Part shown: piece by piece, positions 1,041-17,405 of the stretch | How the letters are laid out: each line of letters starts with the position of its first letter | How positions within the stretch are numbered: position 1 is the stretch's first letter | Source of the DNA: a virus | Taxonomy: Duplodnaviria > Heunggongvirae > Uroviricota > Caudoviricetes | IMG/VR virus record: IMGVR_UViG_648276671_000019 | Coordinates: 1 to 31,646 of that record | Length of the DNA stretch: 31,646 nucleotides | Direction: 5' to 3' (one strand) | Program-made: the position numbers and the translations under genes | The notes under the pieces: model-generated | What the model saw: the letters and a program-made list of their open reading frames with translations, nothing else | Database searches by the model: none | What the model was told of the DNA's origin: nothing

Positions 1041-4000
1041 TGTACAATCCTCCATCCCGACGCGATGACTGCATAATTGACACAACCCTGCTGTCGATCA
1101 GATCCACCAGTCCCCTGGCTGAGCGCGCATCTATCTCGCCATTGCTCCCTTGATTCTGAATGCTGATGTGATACACGGGAGAATAAACAAATCCCCCGCC
1201 ACCACTCACATTACCAATAGCTCTGACTCCAAGAGAGCCATCCGCTGCCCGGGTCAGTGGCATGATAGCTTCAGGCCCGGCCTCGCCCATCAGCCCGGCA
1301 CCTTTCGCAAAAGCAAAATACGTCGGGGTATCCACAATGGTGTTACTGTAAGCACTCAGATTTGCCGATGTGTAAACACCACCTTTTGCGTTTGCCACTG
1401 CACCGGAAAGCCAGTCGCCGACCGTACCAAGCCATCCTCCGGCACCGGACATGCTTTTGGAAAGTGACTTCAGCCCGTTAACGATGGCAGCGTTCATCAG
1501 AATTTTTGAAACTTCCCGGAGAACTGAGCTCCCCCAGTTTCTCCACTCCACAACATTCCCGGCCAGTGCATCGGAAATATTTGATACCAGCCCGTCCATC
1601 GTGGAAACGACAGCATCTGCCGCCTGTGAAGCATAATCGGCAGCACTGTCTGCCCAGTTCGTCAGTCCCTCTCTGAGTCCGGCATTCCAGTTATCACGCA
1701 AAGCATCGGCCTTTGCATAATAATCCTGCTGATCGCTGAGACGCTCTTCCAGATATTTTTCATTCAGCGCTTTTTCCTGTTTCCACAGGGCTTCTTCAAT
1801 TTCTCCGGTCTGATACTGCCTCAGCAGCTCATTATTTTTCTGCTCAAATTCCTGCCGGATACTCCACATTTCCTGGAGTCGTTCACGCATCCGTGAGCCT
1901 TCACCATATCCCAGCAACTGCGCTTCGTCAGATGCCCGGGCACTGGCATTACTGTCCGCCAGACTGCTCTCATACGCAGCAAGCTGCTCACGAATTTTTT
2001 TCTGGTCGATAAGTGCTGCATTCTGCAAAAGCGTTTGTTTCTGCGCTTCTGACAGGGTTGATAATTCGCCCTGACTGACCTGATATTTCATCTTAGCTAG
2101 TTCAGTATTTTGTCCTGCCAGCGCTATTTGTTCTTTTTGCTGCTTAATCAGTCGCTTATAAGCATCTTCCGTTTTTTCTGCTTCTGACTTACCTCTCCTG
2201 GGTTTATTGGCCTGATTATTTCGCCAGGCTTCCAGCCCGATGTTGATATAATCCTGACGAGCAATCTGATATTTATCGCCAATAAAACCAAGATCATCTG
2301 CAGCAAAACCAAGGCGTGCACGCTCTTTTTCCTCACCTTTAAGGCGGGAAAGCTCCAGCGCCTGTTTACTGCGTTTTATGGCATCCTGCTGCTTATCATC
2401 CAGGGTTGCCTGCGGCAGTCGTAACGGGGCATTCACCAGCCCCTGACGCTGCTGAAGTAACTCATTACCAAGCCCGAGAAGGCGATTAAACTCAGTATGC
2501 TGACCGTTCATGATCAACAGGGACTGATACGCTTTGTTTTGTTCCGCTGCCTGTTGACGGATCAACGCCACCCGTCGCTCCTCCAGCCCGGCAAGCACAT
2601 CCTGAATGGATTGCGCCTTGCCCTGCATTTGAGTGAGACGGGACTGTTCAACTGCCAGTTGATTTGTTGCTTCTGCAAGCCCTTTAAGGATGATTTCAGC
2701 ACCCGAACCACTCTGCGAACTTTCATCAAGCCAACGTTGATAGTCAGCAATTTGATTTTTCAGTCCGCGAATTTTTCCTTCCTGTTCGCTAATCAGGCGA
2801 TTTTGTTCCTCCAGTGCCTTCCGCGTCTTTTCTTCATTATCTGACGTTTCAGGAAGCGACATTGCCGACGTTTTCTGGCGAATTTCGTCGATTGTTGCGG
2901 CATACTGGCGTGCAGATTCTCTGGCCTGCTCCTGATTCTGATACATCGTGTACCAGGCCGCGGCCCCCAGCATGACAAGCCCCGGCACACCACCAACCAG
3001 CCCCAGCGCACCACTTAACAGACGGCTCCCCACTGACGTAACATTATTCAGCGTTGTCTGTGCCGCTGTTCTGGCCACAATATTACGGGTAAGTGACGCC
3101 TGAGCAGCTGTCAGCTTCGCTTCTGCTGCGGCCTGCCTTTCGGTACCACGAGCAGCAACAACCGCCTGTTGCGCACGATAAACCGCCGCACGCGCCCTGG
3201 CGGTTGCTATCTGTGTCCCCCGAAGTTGCGCTTCAGCAAGAGACACTTCATTTCTGGCCGCAGTGATTAGCCCGGCAGTTGCAGAGCCAGCAGAAGACGC
3301 CATATTGCCAAAATATCGGGCTACCCCGACGGCAACCAGAGCACCGGCAGCGGTTGCCACAGTGTCAATATTGCCTGCAATACCATTCAGCACACCGGAG
3401 AGCGTCTTCGTCACTCCGCTTGCCTCGTTCGCACCACCAACCCAGGCCATAAAGGCGTTTTCAACTTTGGTTGCAGAGGATGAAACCGTATCAGGCATTG
3501 CCGCATATTCATCACGTAATGCCCCAAGCTGACTAATCAGTGCAGGAACAACCTTATCGGCGGTCAACTTTCCGTTATCCGCCATGGCCTTCAGATCCTT
3601 ACGGGCAACTCCCATTCCCGCAGCCAGCGCACGAATAACACGATCACCGTTCTCATTCACCGAGTTAAACTCTTCACCGCGCAGCACTCCCTGCGCCAGA
3701 GCCTGACTGAACTGCGTGATCACCGAACTGGCTTCTGCTGTACTGGCACCGGATAATTTCAGGCCCGTGGAGATCGCCTCGGTGACTTTCAGTACCTCCT
3801 CAGAACTGTAACCATACTCCCGCATGGAAGCTGCAGAGCGGGCAAAAAGGCTGGCGTTATCAGAAAAAGCCGTCCCCGTTCTCTGGCTGATCGCCATTAA
3901 TTCACGCTGTGATGACTGAAAATCATCACTGGACTGTGAGGCCTGCTTCAGACGGGCATTTACTGAATTCCACTCATCGGCGAGAGAAATAAGATGACCG

Positions 4001-4248
4001 GTAGCAAAAGCCCCGGCAAATGCCCCCGCCATGTTCAGTGCCGAAGATTTAGCTGTATTTATCTGATCCGTCACTTCTGCCAGTGCACGCCGCATTTCAC
4101 GGGATGCAGCAGCGGACTGCCGGCCTCCGTTCTGCATGGTACGGTAGTAATCCTGCCCCATACGCGAAGCCCGGGCGATCTCTGACTGGAATGACCGGGA
4201 ATTTGCCGAGATTTTAATAATCAGTTCACGTAATGTCGCCACACTCAT
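1033..4248 (-). CDS. H: Tail tape measure protein (lambda gpH-like)
   Basis: 1071-aa ORF between the G-T chaperone genes and M; long Ala/Gln-rich coiled-coil middle and a C-terminal region resembling lambda gpH. Confidence 0.9.
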   Translation of the reverse strand: MSVATLRELIIKISANSRSFQSEIARASRMGQDYYRTMQNGGRQSAAASREMRRALAEVTDQINTAKSSALNMAGAFAGAFATGHLISLADEWNSVNARLKQASQSSDDFQSSQRELMAISQRTGTAFSDNASLFARSAASMREYGYSSEEVLKVTEAISTGLKLSGASTAEASSVITQFSQALAQGVLRGEEFNSVNENGDRVIRALAAGMGVARKDLKAMADNGKLTADKVVPALISQLGALRDEYAAMPDTVSSSATKVENAFMAWVGGANEASGVTKTLSGVLNGIAGNIDTVATAAGALVAVGVARYFGNMASSAGSATAGLITAARNEVSLAEAQLRGTQIATARARAAVYRAQQAVVAARGTERQAAAEAKLTAAQASLTRNIVARTAAQTTLNNVTSVGSRLLSGALGLVGGVPGLVMLGAAAWYTMYQNQEQARESARQYAATIDEIRQKTSAMSLPETSDNEEKTRKALEEQNRLISEQEGKIRGLKNQIADYQRWLDESSQSGSGAEIILKGLAEATNQLAVEQSRLTQMQGKAQSIQDVLAGLEERRVALIRQQAAEQNKAYQSLLIMNGQHTEFNRLLGLGNELLQQRQGLVNAPLRLPQATLDDKQQDAIKRSKQALELSRLKGEEKERARLGFAADDLGFIGDKYQIARQDYINIGLEAWRNNQANKPRRGKSEAEKTEDAYKRLIKQQKEQIALAGQNTELAKMKYQVSQGELSTLSEAQKQTLLQNAALIDQKKIREQLAAYESSLADSNASARASDEAQLLGYGEGSRMRERLQEMWSIRQEFEQKNNELLRQYQTGEIEEALWKQEKALNEKYLEERLSDQQDYYAKADALRDNWNAGLREGLTNWADSAADYASQAADAVVSTMDGLVSNISDALAGNVVEWRNWGSSVLREVSKILMNAAIVNGLKSLSKSMSGAGGWLGTVGDWLSGAVANAKGGVYTSANLSAYSNTIVDTPTYFAFAKGAGLMGEAGPEAIMPLTRAADGSLGVRAIGNVSGGGGFVYSPVYHISIQNQGSNGEIDARSARGLVDLIDSRVVSIMQSSRRDGGLYSA

Positions 4249-4287
4249 TCTCCGGACGAAAAAAACCGCCGAAGCGGTTATGTTGAC

Positions 4288-4976
4288 TCACTGAGACACT
4301 ATTAAAAGCGCGTTTTCCAGTCCGGAAAATGGATCTGAGGCGCCTTCTGTCTGCTCTTGTTCCCACTGAAGAAGCGCATCATTCAGCGGAACTTTAACAC
4401 CCTGCGCACCATAAACAGCTGAAACAATCTGGGCAGCCCGGATATCAGCCCGTTCGTCCCCCAGCGGGCTGAACCTGTCAAATTCAGCCCACATCATGAT
4501 TTCTGATGCGGACATTTCCCGGCGTAACTCTGACAATGTGCGCCCCATCCTGAGCGCCAGCATCATCAGAAAACGCATCCCCGGAAGCGCTACTTTTTTT
4601 TAACCTCTCCGGCATCACTGATCAGTTCCAGAGACTGCCGAAGAAGCCGCGCATGCACCGGGCCATACACGGCAATCACCTGTTCACGATCATCCTCTGA
4701 AAATACAGGTTGCAGTCCGGTATCACACAGAACATCAATGAACAGTTCAACGTCTGCCTCCAGATTTCGGCGGGCGCGCTCCGCAACGGATAACGGTGTC
4801 TCATCATCTTTTGCTTTAACGATCTCCTGCCAGCGCAACCAGGCTTCTGCAGAAGGTTCCCGTAATACAGCCGTTGCCCCTTCCCATTCAGGCACATCAA
4901 CAGTTTTATGGCGAAACCCCGACATCGTTGCCAGTGCCAGATTACGGATATTTTTAGTCATCACATCCATCCTCAT
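4288..4976 (-). CDS. Tail assembly chaperone G-T fusion made by programmed -1 ribosomal frameshift
   Basis: mRNA reads GUU AAA AAA AAG UAG; slipping back 1 nt at A_AAA_AAG continues VALPGMRFLMMLALR, which is exactly the 4288..4578 ORF frame; coordinate arithmetic confirms the -1 relation. Confidence 0.7.
4590..4976 (-). CDS. G: Tail assembly chaperone G
   Basis: 128-aa ORF directly upstream of the tape measure gene, ending GEVKKK-stop on an A-run; ATG overlaps the V stop (TAATG). Confidence 0.85.
   Translation of the reverse strand: MRMDVMTKNIRNLALATMSGFRHKTVDVPEWEGATAVLREPSAEAWLRWQEIVKAKDDETPLSVAERARRNLEADVELFIDVLCDTGLQPVFSEDDREQVIAVYGPVHARLLRQSLELISDAGEVKKK
4593..4599 (-). promoter_or_regulatory. 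Slippery heptamer A_AAA_AAG for the G to G-T -1 frameshift
   Basis: X_XXY_YYZ heptamer in the G frame, 3 nt before the G stop codon. Confidence 0.65.
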
Positions 4977-5680
4977 TAACTGACGGTTACAGTGCAGGAA
5001 GTGGAGGTCACTTTGTTAACCGGGCTTGCTGAATCAGAAATCTCGCAGGTATATGCGCCCGCATCACCGGATACTGCCGATGCCTTACTGAACGTTGCCG
5101 CCGTCTGTCCGGAAACAGGAGAACTACCTTTCTTCCAGACATAAGAATAAGGCGGCACACCACCGGCAGCCTCAACCATCATTTCGAGTTTTGCTCCGGC
5201 AGAAACCTGCAGCGTGCTGTTTAAATCGACCTTCACTTTCAGCGGCTCTGTCGTCAGCACAGGTTTACCTTTCAGGCGCAGGGAAAACGTTGCAGCCACA
5301 ACACCATTGGTTCCTGCAGACCAGGTATGCTGACGCACCTCTGCCATAAAGGTAAATCCGTTTCCTGACGGAAAAATAACTTTAAAGCCATACGTGGTGT
5401 CATTGTCATAGGCACTGCGCAACGCGTTCTGGGCAGCATTGAGGTAAAAGTTGCCTGACATGGAAATCTCTGACGCGGCACCAAGACCGTTAATATTTTC
5501 CTGCTCAACAGAACACAGCGTGGTGACATCAATATCCTGCTTTTGTCCTGCGGTAAACTGCACCTCTTTGATTGTACAGCTCAGGCCAAGATAGCTGGCA
5601 GAATCCAGGGTTTCTGCTGTTACCGGTGCAGACGAAATCATAATTTTCGTCAGTTGCGAACGCTCAAAATTAGAGGACAT
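4976..5680 (-). CDS. V: Major tail protein (gpV-like) with C-terminal Ig-like domain
   Basis: Position between tail-completion genes and G; ATG at 5680 preceded by AGGAGA; C-terminal PPYSYVWKKGSSPVSGQTAATFSKASAVSGDAGAYTC segment resembles Ig-like (Big_2) decoration domains. Confidence 0.8.
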   Translation of the reverse strand: MSSNFERSQLTKIMISSAPVTAETLDSASYLGLSCTIKEVQFTAGQKQDIDVTTLCSVEQENINGLGAASEISMSGNFYLNAAQNALRSAYDNDTTYGFKVIFPSGNGFTFMAEVRQHTWSAGTNGVVAATFSLRLKGKPVLTTEPLKVKVDLNSTLQVSAGAKLEMMVEAAGGVPPYSYVWKKGSSPVSGQTAATFSKASAVSGDAGAYTCEISDSASPVNKVTSTSCTVTVS

Positions 5681-5693
5681 ACTCGTCTCCTGA

Positions 5694-5718
5694 AAATAAA
5701 AAACCCGCCAGCGGCGGG
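5694..5718 (-). terminator. Rho-independent terminator-like hairpin upstream of the major tail gene
   Basis: On the minus strand, stem CCCGCC-GCT-GGCGGG followed by TTTTTTATTTT. Confidence 0.5.
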
Positions 5719-5739
5719 TGGGTAAAATCATTAACGGCC

Positions 5740-6084
5740 TCAGGCTATTACCTGAAATTCAAGCGTGGCTCTGCTCAGACGGGAATCAGGATCATAACCC
5801 TGCGTTTTAGAAATAACGGAGGGTGCCAGTTGCCTTACCGCATCAAGCGCCTGCTCACGGATATCATCTGCGTCATCAGGTACTGTTGCCCAGACATCGA
5901 TCTGCACGGTAATTCTGGATTCAGCCTGACCATCAAGCACATCAGACGTAGTGTCAGACACCACAGAAAATACCAGCCATGGCGGAGATACCGCAGGCTT
6001 TCCCTCCGTCAGCGGGACCACATAAGGATAAACCTGTCCTCCGGCCAGTTGAGACAGCAGGGAATACAGTGTGGTCTCTCTCAT
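5740..6084 (-). CDS. Putative tail terminator / tail completion protein
   Basis: 114-aa ORF immediately upstream of the major tail gene, ATGA-coupled to the preceding gene; function assigned by position only. Confidence 0.5.
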   Translation of the reverse strand: MRETTLYSLLSQLAGGQVYPYVVPLTEGKPAVSPPWLVFSVVSDTTSDVLDGQAESRITVQIDVWATVPDDADDIREQALDAVRQLAPSVISKTQGYDPDSRLSRATLEFQVIA

Positions 6085-6527
6085 TTACTTAAGACCTCAT
6101 CAATAGCCTGATTCATTCGCTGTATGGCAATCTGTGCTGCCAGTTCCTCTGTCGTATCGAAAGCCGGGCGAATGAACGGATGCGCGGGCATGTTTATCGT
6201 TCCCAGCTCCACAAAGCGCCAGTAAAACGCATTTCGGGGATCGCTGGCTTTCATGCTGTTATCACTGTTTCCGGTTCGCAGGTTCCGTCCGCGAATGTGG
6301 ACACCCGAGATAATTTCTCCCCGACGCTTTGAACGCTGCGTGAGAACAACCACATTTTTCTTCAGTTTCCCGGTTCGCTCCGGCGCACGCTCAACAACTG
6401 CATCCCGCATAACTTCAGCACCGGCACGGGTGGCATCGCGCAGAACCTTATTGTTTTCTGCCCTGCTGAGCGTCTCCAGATCCCGTGCAATATCCGCCAG
6501 GCCGGAAAAATCAAGACTGAAATCCAT
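6081..6527 (-). CDS. HK97 gp10-family head-tail connector component
   Basis: 148-aa ORF with ATG at 6527 overlapping the upstream stop; sequence (AHPFIRPAFD, basic middle region) recalls the HK97 gp10 family. Confidence 0.55.
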   Translation of the reverse strand: MDFSLDFSGLADIARDLETLSRAENNKVLRDATRAGAEVMRDAVVERAPERTGKLKKNVVVLTQRSKRRGEIISGVHIRGRNLRTGNSDNSMKASDPRNAFYWRFVELGTINMPAHPFIRPAFDTTEELAAQIAIQRMNQAIDEVLSK

Positions 6528-6865
6528 CACACATTCCCCTTCTGAGAACAGAGTATTTCAAGCCGGGTAGCGCGTGCATCCGGTATTGGTGGACCTTCTA
6601 TACCCAGAATGGCCCCTTTAAATGCACCGGTCAGCACTTTCAGACGTGAAGTCGCTGTCACATCGCGCCGGAATCTCATCCAGACTCTGACCGTAGCCTG
6701 AGCGGTTTCTGCTCCGCCTGAGATTATCTCCCTCCCGCTGATACCCTTAACTTCTGCCCATACGGTAGCTCCCTCCGTCACCGTCTCCACCGGATGCCCT
6801 GACGGAGAGCGGGCGGTGGTGACATTCAGAATAATTACGCGATCACGTAATCTGCCCGCCTGCAT
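6527..6865 (-). CDS. Head closure / head-tail joining protein
   Basis: 112-aa ORF with GGAGGAAGC Shine-Dalgarno; position and size typical of head-closure proteins after the gp6-like adaptor. Confidence 0.6.
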   Translation of the reverse strand: MQAGRLRDRVIILNVTTARSPSGHPVETVTEGATVWAEVKGISGREIISGGAETAQATVRVWMRFRRDVTATSRLKVLTGAFKGAILGIEGPPIPDARATRLEILCSQKGNV

Positions 6866-6873
6866 GCTTCCTC

Positions 6874-7191
6874 CTACAAAGGAATAAAACGATAAGGCTC
6901 CAGCAGAGAAGAAAAACCAAACGGGATTGGTGCCTTGCTGACATCTGAGGAATTTTCCCGGTTTTCGTACCAGTGCCCGACCAGCAACATGAGCGCCAGC
7001 AAAACATCATCAGCTATAAGCACCCCGTCAGGATCACCTTCCGGCACCGTCTCCTCATAAAGCTTACGGTTGATAAAATTTTCTGCCTTGCGGCAGGCCG
7101 CCCGGAAATACAGCATCAGTAACTCATCATCAGTTGCATCATCTGTATCAATACGGCACTGCGCCCTGAGTTTTTCCACTATTGCTGCCAT
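6874..7191 (-). CDS. Head-tail adaptor (gp6-like DNA-packaging/connector protein)
   Basis: ORF track gives 6874..7371, but the first ATG with an AGGAG Shine-Dalgarno is at 7191; upstream of it lies a terminator hairpin; the acidic N-terminus is typical of the family. Confidence 0.55.
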   Translation of the reverse strand: MAAIVEKLRAQCRIDTDDATDDELLMLYFRAACRKAENFINRKLYEETVPEGDPDGVLIADDVLLALMLLVGHWYENRENSSDVSKAPIPFGFSSLLEPYRFIPL

Positions 7192-13245: not shown

Positions 13246-13710
13246 CTACTTAATGCACTGAGTGCGGATATACTCCTGTGCCCCTTCCAGTTGCATCTGC
13301 ATCGTCATCAGCCGCTCTCTGAGGGTGAAATAATCCCGTTCAGCGGTGTCTTCCAGTCGGGGGCTGGTTGCATTATCCACGCCGGAGGCGGTGGTGGCTT
13401 CACGCACTGACTGACAGACTGCTTTGATGTGCAACCGACGACGACCAGCGGCAACATCAGCGCGCAGAGTTTCATTTTCAGCTTTCGCATTGGCTAATTC
13501 TCTCGAGTACTTTGCATCGAGAGCAGCAACATCACGCTGACGCTGCTGCATGTCAGCGATGGTGGCGATCGCCTGCTTCAGCTCACTGACTTTTTTATCA
13601 CGCTGTTCTTTGTAGGCGATGGCGTTATCACGGTAATGATTGACCGCCCACGACAGGCAGACGATGATGCAGATAACCAGAGCATAAATAATCGCGGCGA
13701 CTCTGCTCAC
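13246..13710 (-). CDS. Rz: Spanin, inner-membrane subunit (Rz)
   Basis: Translation closely resembles lambda Rz; probable GTG start at 13710 overlapping the endolysin stop (GTGA), the ORF-track start at 13725 being TTG. Confidence 0.85.
13308..13490 (-). CDS. Rz1: Spanin, outer-membrane lipoprotein subunit (Rz1), nested in Rz
   Basis: 60-aa ORF in the +1 frame inside Rz with lipobox LVVVGC and a PPPPP stretch; near-identical to lambda Rz1 as I recall it. Confidence 0.85.
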
Positions 13711-14240
13711 TGATCTATCCCCCAACAGGCTAATGCGCTTTCCTGGTCACGACGAATAACCTGTCCATAGCAGTTATTTGAACGTATGCGGCAATCGCGC
13801 CCACCATCTTTTATCCACCAGCGAATCGCCTCGCATGCACCTTTACGATCACCAGCATTCAGCCGCTTATAAAACGTCGACGGAAAACACTTACCGGGGC
13901 CAATGTTATAGGGACAAAATGACGCGATACCCGCTTTTTGTGGTTCGGTCAGTGGTACTTTAAGATTGCGCTCCACCCATGCCAGCGCCTTATCACGCTC
14001 AATGGCGTTGACCTGGTCGCATTTTTCCTTCGACAGTTTCATACCGGGAAAAACGGGTTTTCCATCCACCATCGTGGCACCCCGACAGATGGTCCAGATG
14101 CCGGACCCATCGCGGTATGCCGTTGTGTGGTTACCTTCTTTTTCATCCAGAAACTGGTCGAGAATATCAGGCGCGGGCGCACCGACGGCAATCAGTGCCA
14201 GAACGGCAGCCGACAGGCCGTATCTGATTTTTGCGTTCAT
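13707..14240 (-). CDS. Endolysin (T4-lysozyme-like), probably SAR type
   Basis: E-x8-D-x5-T catalytic triad ([20 protein letters not shown]); N-terminal weakly hydrophobic Gly/Ala-rich segment [17 protein letters not shown] consistent with a signal-anchor-release domain. Confidence 0.8.
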
Positions 14241-14303
14241 GGATATTTATCAGGATTTATCGGTTTCTGCCCACGGACAGGTTTATCTGTTCCGGTCAGT
14301 GAC

Positions 14304-14654
14304 TTAAGGTTGTGATTCCGGAGGAGTCTTCAGAGAACCAGTAATTCTTCCTGGTAGCTTTCCTTTGTAGGTTATCCACACATTCTGCGCATCTAAAATT
14401 ACGGGGTGCTTTTCCGGCGACTGCTCATCCCCTTCACATAACCCGGCAGCAACATCCAGGAAGACCTGTCTGATGCTCCTTCTGGCTGCTGCCTCATAAA
14501 ACTCCAGCGCGGCACCTTCAACACGGTCCAGCGAGATGTCCAGGTCAAAAATTTCACCGTCAAAGCGTTTTTTGTCCCGTAACGCTAAAGTTACCGTAAC
14601 TTTATTCTCAAAATTGCGGATCCCTTTCACAATCAGTTCATAGTTTTGAGTCAT
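14304..14654 (-). CDS. Hypothetical soluble protein inside the lysis cassette
   Basis: 116-aa ORF translationally coupled 4 nt after the holin stop, Shine-Dalgarno GGGGAGAG; no transmembrane segment or signal peptide. Confidence 0.55.
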   Translation of the reverse strand: MTQNYELIVKGIRNFENKVTVTLALRDKKRFDGEIFDLDISLDRVEGAALEFYEAAARRSIRQVFLDVAAGLCEGDEQSPEKHPVILDAQNVWITYKGKLPGRITGSLKTPPESQP

Positions 14655-14658
14655 TGAA

Positions 14659-14874
14659 TTACTCTCCCCGTGCAGCCTTACGCTTGTCTTCTCTGATTTT
14701 GAAGTACAGATTTGTCAGATAAGTCAGGAAGCCCAGAACCAGACTCCCCAGTACACCAATCGCAGCCCACTGTGACGGACTGACCTGATCAAGCCACTGT
14801 AAAAACCAGTAGCCAGCACTGCCTGCGGAGGTGCCGTAGGCAATGCCCGTTGAAATTTTATCCATGGATTTCAT
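14659..14874 (-). CDS. Holin, phage 21 S-like (pinholin) with dual-start motif
   Basis: 71 aa, [26 protein letters not shown] matches the S21 holin family; Met1-Lys-Ser-Met4 gives antiholin and holin starts; GGAGGTGAGG Shine-Dalgarno. Confidence 0.85.
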
Positions 14875-15157
14875 AGCCTCACCTCCGCACGGAACGGATG
14901 GCGTAATTCTTATATCGGGAAGGGAAAAAAGAAGGCCGCAGCATAACTGTCACTGATTAATTCATGACAGCCAGTGGCTACGGCTCTGTCAGGGTTGTGC
15001 TGTTGCTGGGCGGCGATGACGCCCGTGCGCATTTGGTAATCCGGTTCTGCTTCCGGCATTCGCTTAATTCAGCACAACGGAAAGAGCACTCAATGCATTT
15101 AAGCCAAGCCCCATAAGGGAGAATGCTCTTACCTGTTGTGCAGACAAAAAAAACACA

Positions 15158-15232
<75 letters not shown>

Positions 15233-15233
15233 A

Positions 15234-15310
15234 TGGTCCGTCACCGAGGACTCGAACCCCGCACCATCAACTTAGAAGGTTGATGCTCTATCCCGATGAG
15301 CTAGTGACGG
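15234..15310 (-). tRNA. tRNA-Arg (anticodon UCU)
   Basis: Acceptor CCGTCAC/GTGACGG, anticodon stem TCAAC/GTTGA with loop CTTCTAA, T-loop TTCGAGT, 3' ACCA; 1 nt from the neighbouring tRNAs. Confidence 0.8.
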
Positions 15311-15311
15311 T

Positions 15312-15387
15312 TGGTGGCCCTTGCTGGACTTGAACCAGCGACCTGGCGATTATAACTCGCTCTCATCATTTAGCTAAAATGGCAGGG
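15312..15387 (-). pseudogene. Degenerate tRNA-Ile-like gene (ileX-like 3' half, anticodon loop GTTATAA)
   Basis: 3' half (TCGCC AGGTC GCTGG TTCAAGT CCAGC AAGGGCC A CCA) is nearly identical to E. coli ileX as I recall it; the 5' acceptor strand and D-arm do not pair properly. Confidence 0.35.
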
Positions 15388-15509
15388 GGAGTGATGATAC
15401 ATCAGTCACATTAAACATGAAAACAAAATGGTTTTAGGTGAAATACAAAAAGAATAGTGATTAAATATCAAATGGATATGCTTTAAATCTAACCACAGTA
15501 AGGACGAGT

Positions 15510-16454
15510 ATGATTTTTCTCAAGAATGGCGAAAGTTTTATTCGCGTGAATGACTGGGCAGAAATTCAGGCGAGAGAGTCTTACTATCCCAAATTAGAGT
15601 TAAATGATCAGCAACTCTCTGACGTTTTTGGTTACTACGATGACCTACCAGAGGAAATTCCATGTGGGAAATCAAATTGCCGCAAAGGGCATAAAAAGGG
15701 ATTTCTGGTAGTTACGAAAGAAGGATTTGAAACGAATATCGGCCATGTATGTGGAACTAATGTTTTTGGTATAGCCTTTGATAATTTAGCAATAGAACTT
15801 TGCCGAAAAGCAGATTTCCATCGCTTACTTACCGCACTTAAAGAGGCAAAAGATGATATTTTTAGCTATTACAAACTCAAAGCCAAAATCGAATCTGGGC
15901 GTCCATCACTAACTGAGGTTGCTCATAGAATACTTGACATGAAAGACCCTAAAATCATCGGGCGTGCAGCTTATCAAACATTGAAAAAGATGGCTGCTTC
16001 TGGTGATGGGCGTGTTTTCCGCTCAAGATTAAAAAATACAGAAGAGCTAGAACTGGACGAAATTATGTCCCAAAAGCAAACAAGCGACTTAGCTCCGAAA
16101 GTTAACAATAAGAACAAAACCGTAAACGAACTTATTGGGGTAATACAATACCCTGAATGCTTGCTGAATGATTATGACATTGCTCTTCTTTATGAAAGAG
16201 ATATAAAAATGGTTCTGGAAAAATTAAACAAATGCAACCCAGATGAATTAACTGAAAGAGAGGTGTTGTCATTTGGAATAAAGGTTTCAAGATTAAGAGA
16301 GCGCTTTAGTTTTGTTCAGGAACGCTTAGAAAAATCGAGGTTTTTTGCAACAAGAGAAAATCTTAAACCTTTACGCGCATTACTTAACATCCAGAAATCT
16401 GTAAGCAACAAAGACAAATTACTATTTAAGAAATTTATGGAAAATTTACCATAA
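15510..16454 (+). CDS. Hypothetical protein (314 aa), opposite-strand insertion between Q and the lysis genes
   Basis: Long ORF in visibly AT-rich DNA, TAAGGA Shine-Dalgarno 8 nt before the ATG, terminator hairpin directly after the stop; Cys/His cluster CGKSNCRKGH...HVCG; no family recognised. Confidence 0.7.
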   Translation: MIFLKNGESFIRVNDWAEIQARESYYPKLELNDQQLSDVFGYYDDLPEEIPCGKSNCRKGHKKGFLVVTKEGFETNIGHVCGTNVFGIAFDNLAIELCRKADFHRLLTALKEAKDDIFSYYKLKAKIESGRPSLTEVAHRILDMKDPKIIGRAAYQTLKKMAASGDGRVFRSRLKNTEELELDEIMSQKQTSDLAPKVNNKNKTVNELIGVIQYPECLLNDYDIALLYERDIKMVLEKLNKCNPDELTEREVLSFGIKVSRLRERFSFVQERLEKSRFFATRENLKPLRALLNIQKSVSNKDKLLFKKFMENLP

Positions 16455-16480
16455 TTAAAAACCCGCTGTAAGGCGGGTTC
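16451..16480. terminator. Bidirectional terminator hairpin (candidate tR' on the minus strand; terminator of the 314-aa gene on the plus strand)
   Basis: Stem AACCCGC-TGTAAG-GCGGGTT; on the minus strand it is followed at once by TTTAATTAT, on the plus strand by a T-run 9 nt away. Confidence 0.55.
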
Positions 16481-16520
16481 TGTGGTAATTTTTATTTTGG
16501 CGCTAAAACCCATGCTCAAA

Positions 16521-16550
16521 ATGGTACAAGACAATTTTATGCAAAGTCAA
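16521..16550 (-). promoter_or_regulatory. Candidate late promoter PR' (-35 TTGACT, 18-nt spacer, -10 TACCAT) with presumed Q-utilisation region
   Basis: Located between the Q stop (16590) and the terminator hairpin; spacer contains ATAAAATTG as in lambda PR'; would give a short transcript of about 60 nt. Confidence 0.35.
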
Positions 16551-16589
16551 GTCAGTTGCTCAAAAATCTCTCCCCCAGATCTATTCAGA

Positions 16590-17405
16590 TCAGTAACTCG
16601 TTGCCTTCTCAAATGCTCTAGCCGCATGCCGCTCACCTTGATGCAGGATATCAACCAATTTTTCATAGAATGGTTTCCAATTGCGCGACCATGAAGACTG
16701 GTGCAGATCGGGAATGTATATTTGAATAGCTCGATGAACATTAGCTGATTTGATAGATACGAATCCCTTTCCACTACAACGCTCGCAGGTTTTAAATACT
16801 GGCATGCCTTGCTCTTTTGTCGCAATACGATCTAGAATTTTCCCTTTTCCACCACAACGGCAACGTGCGCTTATTGCTCCCCTGCCTTCGCAGACATCAC
16901 AGACTGCAGGCACACTCTCCATTATCTCCGTCCAATGCTCCCAATCTGATGGCCGAACAGCGCGAGAACGGCTGGCCCAGTACGGAGGCGGTCCCCACGG
17001 GAAAGAAACCTTTCGTGTAATTTGAGTCCGTGTGGTTCTACCGGTTCCTTTGCATATAGTGCAGACGCTGCTGGTAGCAGCTGAGCGAGAGTACTCAGCA
17101 AAGGCAAACTGCGCCAGTACCAGCATACACCACCCAAATTCACCACCAGCTGCTTTACGCACATTCTTCGGTGCAATTTCCATCGCGTGACGCGCAAGCG
17201 CCTGGACTGCCATCTGCTCATCAGTCTTGCTGATACCGGCCTTCCCAAAGAAAGCCGCCAGGCCAAACCGCTCACGATTGCTGGTGGTACCAATAGCCGC
17301 CATAACATCGGTGCCTGTAAGACGTTCCGGAGAGGTTCCTTTCACATCGTCGCCGATATACATTCCCTGAGGACTGAAGTATTTTAGCGATGCCTCAAGC
17401 TTCAT
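16590..17405 (-). CDS. Putative late antiterminator Q-like protein
   Basis: 271 aa from the ATG at 17405 (GGGGAG Shine-Dalgarno; overlaps the upstream stop); Cys-rich zinc-finger-like motifs CDVCEGRG...CRCGGKGK and CERCSGKG; last gene before the late promoter region. Confidence 0.5.
   Translation of the reverse strand: MKLEASLKYFSPQGMYIGDDVKGTSPERLTGTDVMAAIGTTSNRERFGLAAFFGKAGISKTDEQMAVQALARHAMEIAPKNVRKAAGGEFGWCMLVLAQFAFAEYSRSAATSSVCTICKGTGRTTRTQITRKVSFPWGPPPYWASRSRAVRPSDWEHWTEIMESVPAVCDVCEGRGAISARCRCGGKGKILDRIATKEQGMPVFKTCERCSGKGFVSIKSANVHRAIQIYIPDLHQSSWSRNWKPFYEKLVDILHQGERHAARAFEKATSY

What the first reader, a model, noticed from the sequence alone, without database searches (positions are those of the whole stretch)
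16451..16589. Candidate PR'-tR' unit producing a short late leader RNA downstream of Q
A -35 TTGACT and -10 TACCAT pair with lambda-PR'-like spacer sequence sits about 40 nt before a strong hairpin and U-run on the minus strand. This is the expected layout for Q-dependent antitermination; the late transcript would then have to read antisense through the 314-aa gene and the tRNAs to reach the lysis genes.
Basis: partly seen in the sequence, partly recalled or inferred. Interest (0 to 1): 0.35.

Follow-up and report, generated by a model that had tools for sequence, protein, structure and literature searches.

The report
Phage late promoter and terminator cassette
The 135-base gap after the prophage's Q gene holds an ordinary lambda-type late-gene switch (promoter, Q-binding site, pause signal and terminator), and its one unusual feature is that the late transcript must then cross a conserved gene lying on the opposite strand before it reaches the lysis genes.

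Summary
All elements are on the minus strand, directly after a Q-lambda-family antiterminator gene (16590-17405):
- -35 TTGACT
- a 13-bp match to the lambda spacer (TTGCATAAAATTG; lambda has TTGAATAAAATTG)
- -10 TACCAT
- a second -10-like hexamer plus GGG (GAGCAT-GGG; lambda pause element AACGAT-GGG)
- a 9-bp hairpin with a U5 run

The predicted leader is about 57 nt.

The hexamers alone are no better than chance. The module as a whole is found after the Q gene in 28 of 34 genome loci and in all 80 viral loci examined. The distance from the Q-binding site to the pause element is the same 14 bp as in lambda, and the terminator stems show compensatory changes.

In this clade the pause hexamer straddles the predicted start site, which remains unexplained.

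The 314-aa gene is a recurrent convergent partner of tR'. It lies on the opposite strand in 32 of 32 loci, down to 25% identity, and also sits beside a Q82-type Q. It has a confident predicted fold with no known relative.

In E. coli STEC276 the same cassette sits upstream of stx2e.

This is a new member of a known kind, of low to moderate interest.

The parts
16590..17405 (-). Q antiterminator gene (271 aa, ATG at 17405). It belongs to the Q-lambda family and carries a roughly 55-aa insertion that gives four CxxCxGxG motifs.
   Evidence: Pfam PF03589, 2.4e-51. phrog_127. PDB 7UBM_Q, 1.1e-34, aligned from residue 4 of the 274-aa ORF. Translation. Start codon checked.
16562..16567 (-). A/T tract (ATTTTT) about 12 nt upstream of the -35. 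It may be an UP-element-like stretch, but this is weak.
   Evidence: Seen in the sequence and conserved in close relatives. The function is inferred only.
16545..16550 (-). -35 hexamer TTGACT of the predicted late promoter PR'.
   Evidence: Invariant in close relatives. It is TTGACT or TTGATT in all but one of the viral-locus module types (TTGCTT once) and TTGnnT in the 28 genome loci that carry the module.
16532..16544 (-). Predicted Q-binding element TTGCATAAAATTG, matching lambda TTGAATAAAATTG at 11 of 13 positions. It abuts the -35.
   Evidence: The first TTG is invariant, the last TG is nearly invariant, and the middle six bases vary. This fits the Q-lambda contacts at pairs 1-4 and 11-13 of a 13-bp site (PMC9388147). 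The register of the lambda site is my inference.
16521..16526 (-). -10 hexamer TACCAT, 18 bp after the -35.
   Evidence: Relatives have TATCAT, TACTAT, TATGCT or TATGAT at the same place, with T1, A2 and T6 kept.
16509..16517 (-). Second -10-like hexamer GAGCAT followed by GGG. This is the predicted sigma-dependent pause element (lambda AACGAT-GGG). It starts 14 nt after the Q-binding element, as in lambda.
   Evidence: A2 and T6 are kept throughout. The 14-nt distance holds in lambda, the window and 26 genome loci, and is 15 nt in two Erwiniaceae loci.
16513..16514 (-). Predicted transcription start (A16513, or C16514), at the 8th or 7th nt after the -10.
   Evidence: Inferred from standard sigma-70 spacing. 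The two bases here are pyrimidine-purine in 74 of 75 viral loci. Not mapped.
16501..16502 (-). Predicted pause position (C then G), 10-11 nt after the pause hexamer. It aligns with the lambda +16/+17 C-G.
   Evidence: Alignment of GGGTTTTAGC-G with lambda GGGTTAATTC-G. Inferred only.
16457..16481 (-). tR' intrinsic terminator: stem AGAACCCGC / GCGGGTTTT, loop CTTACA, and a U5 run at 16461-16457.
   Evidence: All 20 distinct homologous sequences fold into a 7-12-bp stem (-11.7 to -20.6 kcal/mol) with two-sided changes. A hairpin plus T-run follows 66 of 75 viral modules by a crude search.
15510..16454 (+). Convergent 314-aa gene. Its stop codon (16452-16454) lies 2 nt beyond the tR' U-run, and the late transcript must cross it antisense.
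15158..15383 (-). tRNA cluster read in sense by the late transcript: a weak or pseudo tRNA (15315-15383), tRNA-Arg(TCT) and tRNA-Gly(TCC).
   Evidence: The equivalent of the weak one is annotated tRNA-Pseudo-TAT in ON470586.
14875..15145 (-). Lambda-like late leader between the tRNAs and the holin gene. Its upstream part (to about 14925) is roughly 90% identical to lambda, and the homology starts exactly at the lambda tR' T-tract.
13246..14874 (-). First late genes: P21-type holin (14659-14874), DUF1327 (14304-14654), lysozyme (13707-14240) and Rz (13246-13725).

Best explanation
The Q-to-314 intergenic region is the late-gene control cassette of a lambdoid prophage, and it works like lambda PR'-qut-tR'.

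Proposed steps:
1. A sigma-70 promoter (TTGACT, 18 bp, TACCAT) fires constitutively.
2. Without Q, RNA polymerase stops at the hairpin and U5 about 57 nt downstream and releases a short leader RNA.
3. After induction, the 271-aa Q-lambda-type protein binds TTGCATAAAATTG between the -35 and the -10.
4. Q loads onto polymerase held by sigma region 2 at the second -10-like hexamer (GAGCAT-GGG).
5. Q then travels with the polymerase, so it reads through tR', through about 0.95 kb antisense to the 314-aa gene, through the tRNA cluster and a lambda-like leader, and into holin, endolysin, Rz and the structural genes.

What is shown: the sequence elements, their conserved order and spacing, the linkage to Q, the terminator covariation, and the gene order.

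What is inferred: promoter activity, the start site, the pause, Q binding, and read-through.
For: - Q belongs to the Q-lambda family. That family is defined as PF03589 in PMC9388147.
- The module sits 39 nt after the Q stop codon, on the same strand.
- The Q-binding-like 13-mer matches lambda at 11 of 13 positions, and the hexamer plus GGG starts 14 nt after it, exactly as in lambda.
- The same layout is present in 28 of 34 genome loci carrying Q homologues of 38-62% identity, from Citrobacter, Enterobacter, Photorhabdus, Xenorhabdus, Providencia, Proteus and Erwinia. It is present in all 80 viral loci.
- The lambda-derived pattern hits the window only at this site, against 0.74 expected.
- Close relatives at 90-92% identity keep every element, while the substitutions fall at the unconstrained positions within the hexamers, in the flanks and in the hairpin loop.
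- All 20 distinct terminator sequences form a stem plus T-run, with A-T to G-C and G-C to A-T exchanges on both sides.
- Late genes follow on the same strand.
- The DNA after the tRNAs is about 90% identical to lambda DNA that begins at the lambda tR' T-tract.
- In E. coli STEC276 the same cassette precedes stx2e and the holin genes. This is the position where Stx phages place toxin genes under PR' control (PMC7547250).
- Q-lambda is described as a proven polarity suppressor (PMC12360218). A long untranslated antisense stretch is therefore passable.
Against: - There are no transcript data.
- The hexamer pair alone is at chance level.
- The -10 lies only 3 nt before the pause hexamer (6 nt in lambda, 5 nt in the Photorhabdus/Proteus clade). 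With normal spacing the start falls inside that hexamer. The pause would then occur at an RNA of only about 12-14 nt, and it is not established that Q-lambda-type loading works there.
- The U-run is short (U5, then AAUUAU).
- The lambda -35-like TTGACT element between the -10 and the pause hexamer is absent.
- The exact register of the lambda Q-binding element was only available as a figure, so the 13-mer assignment is inferred from the text and from the conservation pattern.
Confidence: 0.87

Rival explanations
1. The promoter is one helical turn upstream (TTGAGC at 16563-16558, 18 bp, TAAAAT at 16539-16534). The reader's TACCAT would then be the sigma-dependent pause element at about +2 to +7, giving a lambda-like pause near +16/+17. 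The unit is still PR'-tR', but with different element assignments.
For: The scan lists this pair with the same 9-of-12 score. It would remove the oddity of a pause hexamer overlapping the start site. The TTGAGC region is conserved in the closest relatives.
Against: TAAAAT is the variable core of the Q-binding element. Loci with the other core (TTGTCCGAA...) have no such -10 yet keep the same geometry. The -35 and -10 as assigned are conserved in every clade. The hexamer plus GGG keeps the lambda distance from the Q-binding site, whereas TACCAT does not.
Confidence: 0.06
2. The hairpin is simply the terminator of the convergent 314-aa gene, and the hexamers are chance matches, so there is no late promoter here.
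For: The stop codon of the 314-aa gene lies 2 nt from the hairpin's T-run. Promoter-like pairs are at chance frequency. In some relatives the hairpin has A- and T-tracts on both sides, which looks bidirectional.
Against: The same promoter, Q-binding site, pause hexamer and hairpin module follows Q in loci that have no convergent gene, including L002-L005, L013, L017 and L021. On the plus strand the window's hairpin is followed by TTCTGTGG, which is a poor U-tract. The module matches lambda element by element.
Confidence: 0.03
3. The unit is active, but the lysis and structural genes are transcribed mainly from another promoter downstream of the 314-aa gene (for example the promoter-like site at 15423-15394 ahead of the tRNAs). 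PR'-tR' would then serve mostly to make a small RNA.
For: A minus-strand promoter-like pair (TTTTCA, 18 bp, TATCAT) lies just upstream of the tRNA cluster. Head-on transcription through a 945-nt gene looks costly.
Against: There is no second Q-binding/pause module anywhere in the window. An unregulated promoter ahead of the holin would be lethal in a lysogen, and no intrinsic terminator was found between the tRNAs and the holin. The convergent layout is conserved in 32 of 32 loci with lysis genes beyond it. That pattern is not expected if the layout blocked late expression.
Confidence: 0.04

Closest known systems
Bacteriophage lambda PR' / qut (Q-binding element plus sigma-dependent pause element) / tR' and its 6S leader RNA
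   Same: The Q protein family is the same. The order of -35, Q-binding site, -10, -10-like hexamer plus GGG and intrinsic terminator is the same. The -35 (TTGACT) is identical. The 13-mer matches at 11 of 13 positions. The distance from binding site to pause hexamer is the same 14 nt. The early transcribed sequence is similar (GGGTTTTAGCG against GGGTTAATTCG)..
   Different: The leader is about 57 nt rather than 194 nt. The promoter spacer is 18 bp, not 17 bp, and the -35 abuts the binding site. The -10 lies 3 nt before the pause hexamer rather than 6 nt, so the predicted start falls inside the hexamer. There is no -35-like element between the -10 and the pause hexamer. Q is 271 aa with two extra CxxCxGxG motifs. 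Between tR' and the lysis genes lie a convergent gene and tRNAs.
StxS, the Hfq-binding small RNA made by termination of PR' transcripts at tR' in Stx1/Stx2a phages (PMC7547250)
   Same: A short RNA released from a late promoter (predicted constitutive for the Stx phages in PMC7547250, on the lambda model) at tR' in lysogens. The predicted leader here has an A/U-rich single-stranded stretch followed by a terminator hairpin and U-tail.
   Different: StxS comes from phages with a 144-aa Q, a 258-nt PR'-tR' interval and RNase E processing to 74 nt. There is no sequence relationship, and no Rfam family matches the leader here. Hfq binding and any target are untested.
Lambda bor, a lysogeny-expressed accessory gene (moron) lying antisense inside the late operon (from my own knowledge)
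   Same: A gene on the opposite strand that Q-modified polymerase has to cross.
   Different: bor lies after the lysis genes. Here the gene sits at the very start of the operon with its 3' end against tR', and this position is conserved across a family that has diverged to 25% identity.
Stx-phage layout Q - PR' - tR' - tRNA genes - stx - lysis genes
   Same: tRNA genes lie between tR' and the lysis cassette. In E. coli STEC276 the same Q, PR' region, convergent gene and a tRNA-Arg gene precede stx2e and the holin genes.
   Different: This window has no toxin genes. The convergent gene is not part of the classical 933W/Sakai layout.

Membership tests
Q-lambda-type late control cassette (PR'-qut-tR') | Lies immediately downstream of, and on the same strand as, a Q gene of the Q-lambda family (PF03589) | tested here: met
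   PF03589, 2.4e-51. 7UBM_Q, 1.1e-34. The module starts 39 nt after the Q stop.
Q-lambda-type late control cassette (PR'-qut-tR') | Sigma-70 promoter with -35 and -10 hexamers | tested here: met
   TTGACT, 18 bp, TACCAT. Conserved at this position in more than 100 loci. This is a sequence match only; activity was not tested.
Q-lambda-type late control cassette (PR'-qut-tR') | Q-binding element between -35 and -10 | tested here: met
   TTGCATAAAATTG against lambda TTGAATAAAATTG. The conserved ends and variable middle fit the contacts at pairs 1-4 and 11-13. Binding itself cannot be tested here.
Q-lambda-type late control cassette (PR'-qut-tR') | -10-like sigma-dependent pause element in the initially transcribed region, at a fixed distance from the Q-binding element | tested here: inconclusive
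   The hexamer plus GGG is present and lies 14 nt from the binding site, as in lambda. However, it starts 3 nt after the -10, so the predicted start (pyrimidine-purine in 74 of 75 loci) lies inside it rather than before it.
Q-lambda-type late control cassette (PR'-qut-tR') | Intrinsic terminator downstream of the pause site and upstream of the late genes | tested here: met
   9-bp stem plus U5, -13.1 kcal/mol. Conserved, with two-sided changes, in 20 distinct sequences.
Q-lambda-type late control cassette (PR'-qut-tR') | Lysis and structural genes downstream on the same strand | tested here: met
   Holin, lysozyme, Rz and HNH on the minus strand, and further long minus-strand ORFs beyond them that I did not annotate. 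They are separated from tR' by a convergent gene and tRNAs.
Q-lambda-type late control cassette (PR'-qut-tR') | Q-dependent read-through of the terminator | not testable with these tools
   Needs in vitro transcription or reporter assays.
PR'-derived regulatory small RNA (StxS-like) | Stable terminated transcript that binds Hfq and base-pairs with targets | not testable with these tools
   Only the shape (A/U-rich stretch plus terminator) is seen. There is no Rfam hit and no sequence relationship to the StxS context.

The most novel reading that the evidence does not exclude
The gene family represented by the 314-aa ORF is a dedicated partner of the late-operon entry point, not a casual insertion. 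Its features:
- about 300 aa
- invariant C52, C57 and C81, and H61 in at least 90% of members
- a confident predicted fold with no PDB or BFVD relative

On this reading it is expressed in the lysogen, tail-to-tail with PR' and sharing tR'. It is shut off by head-on, Q-antiterminated transcription at induction. Read-through from it might also damp leaky PR'/Q expression, as lambda PaQ does.

A second novel point is that in this Q clade the pause hexamer straddles the start site. Q would therefore load on a polymerase carrying only about 12-14 nt of RNA, earlier than at lambda PR'.
Probability: 0.2. Interest if true: 0.5.

Novelty: new member of a known kind. Interest (0 to 1): 0.3.

Why it matters
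- It fixes the regulatory map of this prophage: where late transcription starts, where it stops in the lysogen, and which DNA Q should recognise.
- It gives a sequence rule for finding late promoters of the large 271-aa Q-lambda subfamily in unannotated prophages: TTGAYT, TTGN-N6-NTG, 5 nt, TAnnnT, 3 nt, nAnnnT-G.
- It shows that the distance from the Q-binding site to the pause element is held constant while the promoter hexamers slide. This is a testable constraint on Q loading.
- The same cassette, with its convergent gene, sits upstream of stx2e in at least one E. coli strain. Toxin output there should depend on this promoter and on transcription through the opposing gene.

Tried and rejected
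- RNAalifold on a MAFFT alignment of the 20 hairpins gave no structure, because stems of unequal length were misaligned. I replaced it with per-sequence folding and pair tables.
- My first alignment windows cut off the -35 in many loci. I redid the analysis with anchored patterns.
- Rfam found only the tRNAs at gathering thresholds. In E-value mode the leader gave only sub-threshold hits (OrzO-P at 24.7 bits against a cutoff of 60; Trp leader at 19.7 against 41), which I treat as chance.
- The lambda Q scan of viral contigs returned only identical copies and added nothing.
- Guo & Roberts 2004 (PMC415771), on the lambda and phi80 Q-binding sites, is not held. The lambda Q-binding sequence appears only in figures.
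- The 314-aa protein has no hit in Pfam, NCBIfam, PADLOC or PDB sequences, either alone or as a 67-member family.
- AlphaFold2 with 14 close homologues failed (pLDDT 57). With 67 diverse homologues it succeeded (pLDDT 95.8).
- I considered a leaderless ORF starting at the AUG formed by the pause hexamer plus G, and dismissed it. In the 93%-identical phage it stops after 15 codons, inside the hairpin loop, and many relatives have GT in place of AT.
- Literature on Stx pR' regions and on Stx2e contexts does not describe this cassette.
Full report
**1. What is in the sequence**

Read on the minus strand, the 135-nt gap between the Q-like gene and the 314-aa ORF runs as follows.
- ...ATTTTTGAGCAACTGAC
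- TTGACT, the -35 (16550-16545)
- TTGCATAAAATTG (16544-16532)
- TCTTG
- TACCAT, the -10 (16526-16521)
- TTT
- GAGCAT (16517-16512), then GGG
- TTTTAGCGCCAAAATAAAAATTACCAC
- AGAACCCGC CTTACA GCGGGTTTT, the hairpin (16481-16458), whose last Ts belong to a T5 run (16461-16457)
- AATTATGG

The stop codon of the 314-aa ORF (plus strand, 16452-16454) lies 2 nt beyond the T-run.

**2. Is it more than chance?**

Not on the hexamers alone. The promoter scan finds 7 sites in 6 kb against 7.2 expected. A loose composite pattern finds 3 against 4.4 expected.

The terminator scan did not list the hairpin. I attribute this to its greedy stem extension consuming the first Ts of the U-run.

The comparison with lambda and with homologous loci is what carries the case (sections 3 and 4).

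**3. The upstream gene**

ORF 16590-17405 (271 aa from the ATG) matches Pfam PF03589 at 2.4e-51 and the lambda Q chain of PDB 7UBM at 1.1e-34. PF03589 is the Q-lambda family as defined by Yin et al. 2022 (PMC9388147).

Relative to lambda Q it has a roughly 55-aa insertion. The insertion adds two more CxxCxGxG motifs, making four in all.

**4. Comparative anatomy**

I extracted 260 nt after the Q stop codon from three sets of loci.
- 34 genome loci with Q homologues of 38-62% identity, from Citrobacter, Enterobacter, Pseudocitrobacter, Trabulsiella, Providencia, Proteus, Photorhabdus, Xenorhabdus and Erwinia.
- Phage vB_EcoS-611R1, which is 93% identical.
- Lambda itself.

Twenty-eight of the 34 genome loci, the window, the phage and lambda share one layout:
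- TTGnnT
- a 16-19-nt spacer containing TTGN-N6-NTG
- TAnnnT
- 3-6 nt
- nAnnnT followed by G-rich bases
- about 40 nt
- a GC-rich hairpin and a T-run

The 13-mer reads TTGAATAAAATTG in lambda and TTGCATAAAATTG here. Across loci the first TTG is invariant and the last TG nearly so. The middle comes in two flavours, GCATAAAA and GTCCGnAn. That fits the published description of Q-lambda contacting base pairs 1-4 and 11-13 of a 13-bp non-repeat site. The exact register in lambda is my inference, because the sequence is only in the paper's figures.

The distance from the end of this 13-mer to the start of the second hexamer is 14 nt in lambda, in the window and in 26 genome loci. It is 15 nt in two Erwiniaceae loci. 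The -10 hexamer, by contrast, slides:

| Clade | Gap between the -10 and the second hexamer |
|---|---|
| Lambda | 6 nt |
| Photorhabdus / Xenorhabdus / Proteus / Providencia | 5 nt |
| The window's clade | 3 nt |

In lambda the second hexamer (AACGAT-GGG) is the sigma-dependent pause element. By position and sequence, GAGCAT-GGG is its counterpart here.

A pattern built on this lambda geometry hits the window once, at this site, against 0.74 expected per shuffled window.

Eighty IMG/VR loci with Q of 72-99% identity all carry the module (75 by the regular expression, 5 more with GTG after the hexamer). Nearly all have the 18-bp spacer and the 3-nt gap.

Among relatives 90-92% identical in this region, every element is kept. 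T1, A2 and T6 of the -10 and A2, A5 and T6 of the second hexamer are invariant.

**5. The terminator**

Each of 20 distinct homologous sequences folds into a 7-12-bp stem (-11.7 to -20.6 kcal/mol) followed by a T-run. Pairs are kept through changes on both sides: G-C to A-T in a Xenorhabdus locus, and A-T, C-G and G-C alternatives at the outer positions.

The T-run starts 49-70 nt after the second hexamer in the genome loci. In the viral loci the range is 49-64 nt with a median of 56.

In the window, the 65-nt stretch 16514-16450 (the leader plus a few flanking bases) folds at -15.4 kcal/mol, z = -2.3. With a start at A16513 the terminated RNA would be about 57 nt, against 194 nt in lambda.

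**6. The path to the late genes**

Downstream on the minus strand the order is as follows.
- The antisense of the 314-aa gene.
- A weak or pseudo tRNA (15315-15383), tRNA-Arg and tRNA-Gly.
- About 220 nt that is roughly 90% identical to lambda DNA beginning exactly at the T-tract of lambda tR'.
- Then a P21-type holin, DUF1327, lysozyme, Rz and HNH, with further long minus-strand ORFs beyond them that I did not annotate.

No second Q-binding/pause module exists in the window. The tRNAs are read in sense.

Q-lambda is described as a proven polarity suppressor (PMC12360218). About 1.3 kb of untranslated RNA is therefore not an obstacle in principle.

**7. The convergent gene**

It has no Pfam, NCBIfam, PADLOC or PDB sequence match. 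It does belong to a family with 550 representatives at 50% clustering.

Relatives lie in the same place and orientation in several contexts.
- E. coli phage vB_EcoS-611R1 and 22 complete E. coli genomes.
- Metagenomic prophages with the same Q type and no tRNAs.
- An Ewingella prophage whose Q belongs to the unrelated Q82 family, PF06323.

Among the 119 Q loci searched, 32 encode a family member after Q. All 32 are on the strand opposite to Q, with the 3' end against the tR' hairpin, at identities down to 25%.

A more distant member in another kind of prophage also points against its neighbours, near the CI-like repressor.

Its function is unknown. The orientation and position suggest a lysogen-expressed accessory gene that late transcription would silence. 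That is inference.

**8. The open point**

With the -10 at 16526-16521, the usual start (7th or 8th nt) is C16514 or A16513. That falls on positions 4 and 5 of the second hexamer. These two bases are pyrimidine-purine in 74 of 75 viral loci, the preferred start-site context (from my own knowledge).

The pause hexamer would then span about -4 to +2. The pause, 10-11 nt beyond it at C16502/G16501, would occur on an RNA of about 12-14 nt rather than 16-17 nt.

The alternative promoter TTGAGC, 18 bp, TAAAAT would restore lambda-like numbers. But it uses the variable core of the Q-binding element and is absent from loci with the other core. I rate it unlikely. Only start-site and pause mapping can settle this.

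**9. Comparison with what is known**

This is the lambda PR'-qut-tR' design in a different, very common Q-lambda subfamily. The short leader parallels lambda 6S RNA and StxS, the Hfq-binding sRNA made at tR' of Stx phages (PMC7547250). There is no sequence relationship to StxS and no evidence here for sRNA function.

An antisense accessory gene inside a late operon has a precedent in lambda bor (my own knowledge).

In E. coli STEC276 the same Q, PR' region, convergent gene and a tRNA-Arg gene lie directly upstream of stx2e and the holin genes.

**10. Verdict**

- It is a new member of a known kind.
- Interest is low to moderate. It rests on the compact geometry, with the pause element at the start site, and on the conserved convergent gene.

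Noticed in passing
window 15510-16454 (+); loci L001, L039-L042, L048-L056, L071, L097-L119: The 314-aa ORF belongs to an unannotated family of about 300-aa proteins (550 representatives). C52, C57 and C81 are invariant, and H61 is kept in at least 90% of members. It has a confident AlphaFold model (pLDDT 95.8) and no PDB or BFVD structural relative. In 32 of 32 Q loci that have it, it lies tail-to-tail with PR'-tR', even at 25% identity and even beside a Q82-family Q.
   Followed up: partly
L042 (E. coli STEC276, NZ_CP091022.1) 2696-7161: The same Q, PR'/tR' region, convergent 314-aa gene and a tRNA-Arg gene sit directly upstream of stxA2/stxB2e and the holin genes. Stx2e in such strains should therefore lie on the late transcript that has to cross the opposing gene. 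Only 22 of 5426 complete E. coli genomes carry this PR' region.
   Followed up: partly
window 14925-15145 (-), compared with lambda 44780-45000: About 220 nt after tRNA-Gly is roughly 90% identical to lambda. The homology begins exactly at the T-tract of lambda tR' (T8 in the window), which marks a mosaic joint.
   Followed up: yes
window 16590-17405 (-): The Q protein has four CxxCxGxG motifs (a DnaJ-like arrangement suggesting two zinc sites) where lambda Q has two, because of a roughly 55-aa insertion in the zinc-ribbon arm.
   Followed up: no
loci L002-L031 and L048-L127, spacer of PR': The middle of the predicted Q-binding element comes in two flavours, GCATAAAA and GTCCGnAn. In the viral loci the flavour goes with the -35 variant (TTGACT with the first, TTGATT with the second) and with the distance from the Q stop codon. 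These may be two Q specificity classes.
   Followed up: no
window 15315-15383 (-): A third, weak tRNA-like sequence (Rfam 31.3 bits; not called by ARAGORN). Its counterpart in ON470586 is annotated tRNA-Pseudo-TAT. The Ile-like/Arg tRNA layout resembles the ileZ-argN-argO cluster of Stx phages (from my own knowledge).
   Followed up: partly
L002, L003, L005, about 3935-4060 (just after tR'): A roughly 110-nt element with long terminal inverted repeats (CCGTAACAGGGAAGAGCA ... TGCTCTCCCCGTTACGG) follows tR' in the Pseudocitrobacter and Enterobacter prophages. It has no Rfam match.
   Followed up: partly
L008, L010-L012, L014 (Photorhabdus), 60-460 nt after tR': A different 119-aa ORF also lies on the opposite strand just beyond tR'. 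Opposing genes at this junction are therefore not limited to the 314-aa family.
   Followed up: no
window 15394-15423 (-): A promoter-like pair (TTTTCA, 18 bp, TATCAT) lies just upstream of the tRNA cluster. It could drive the tRNAs independently in lysogens. No clear intrinsic terminator lies between the tRNAs and the holin gene.
   Followed up: no
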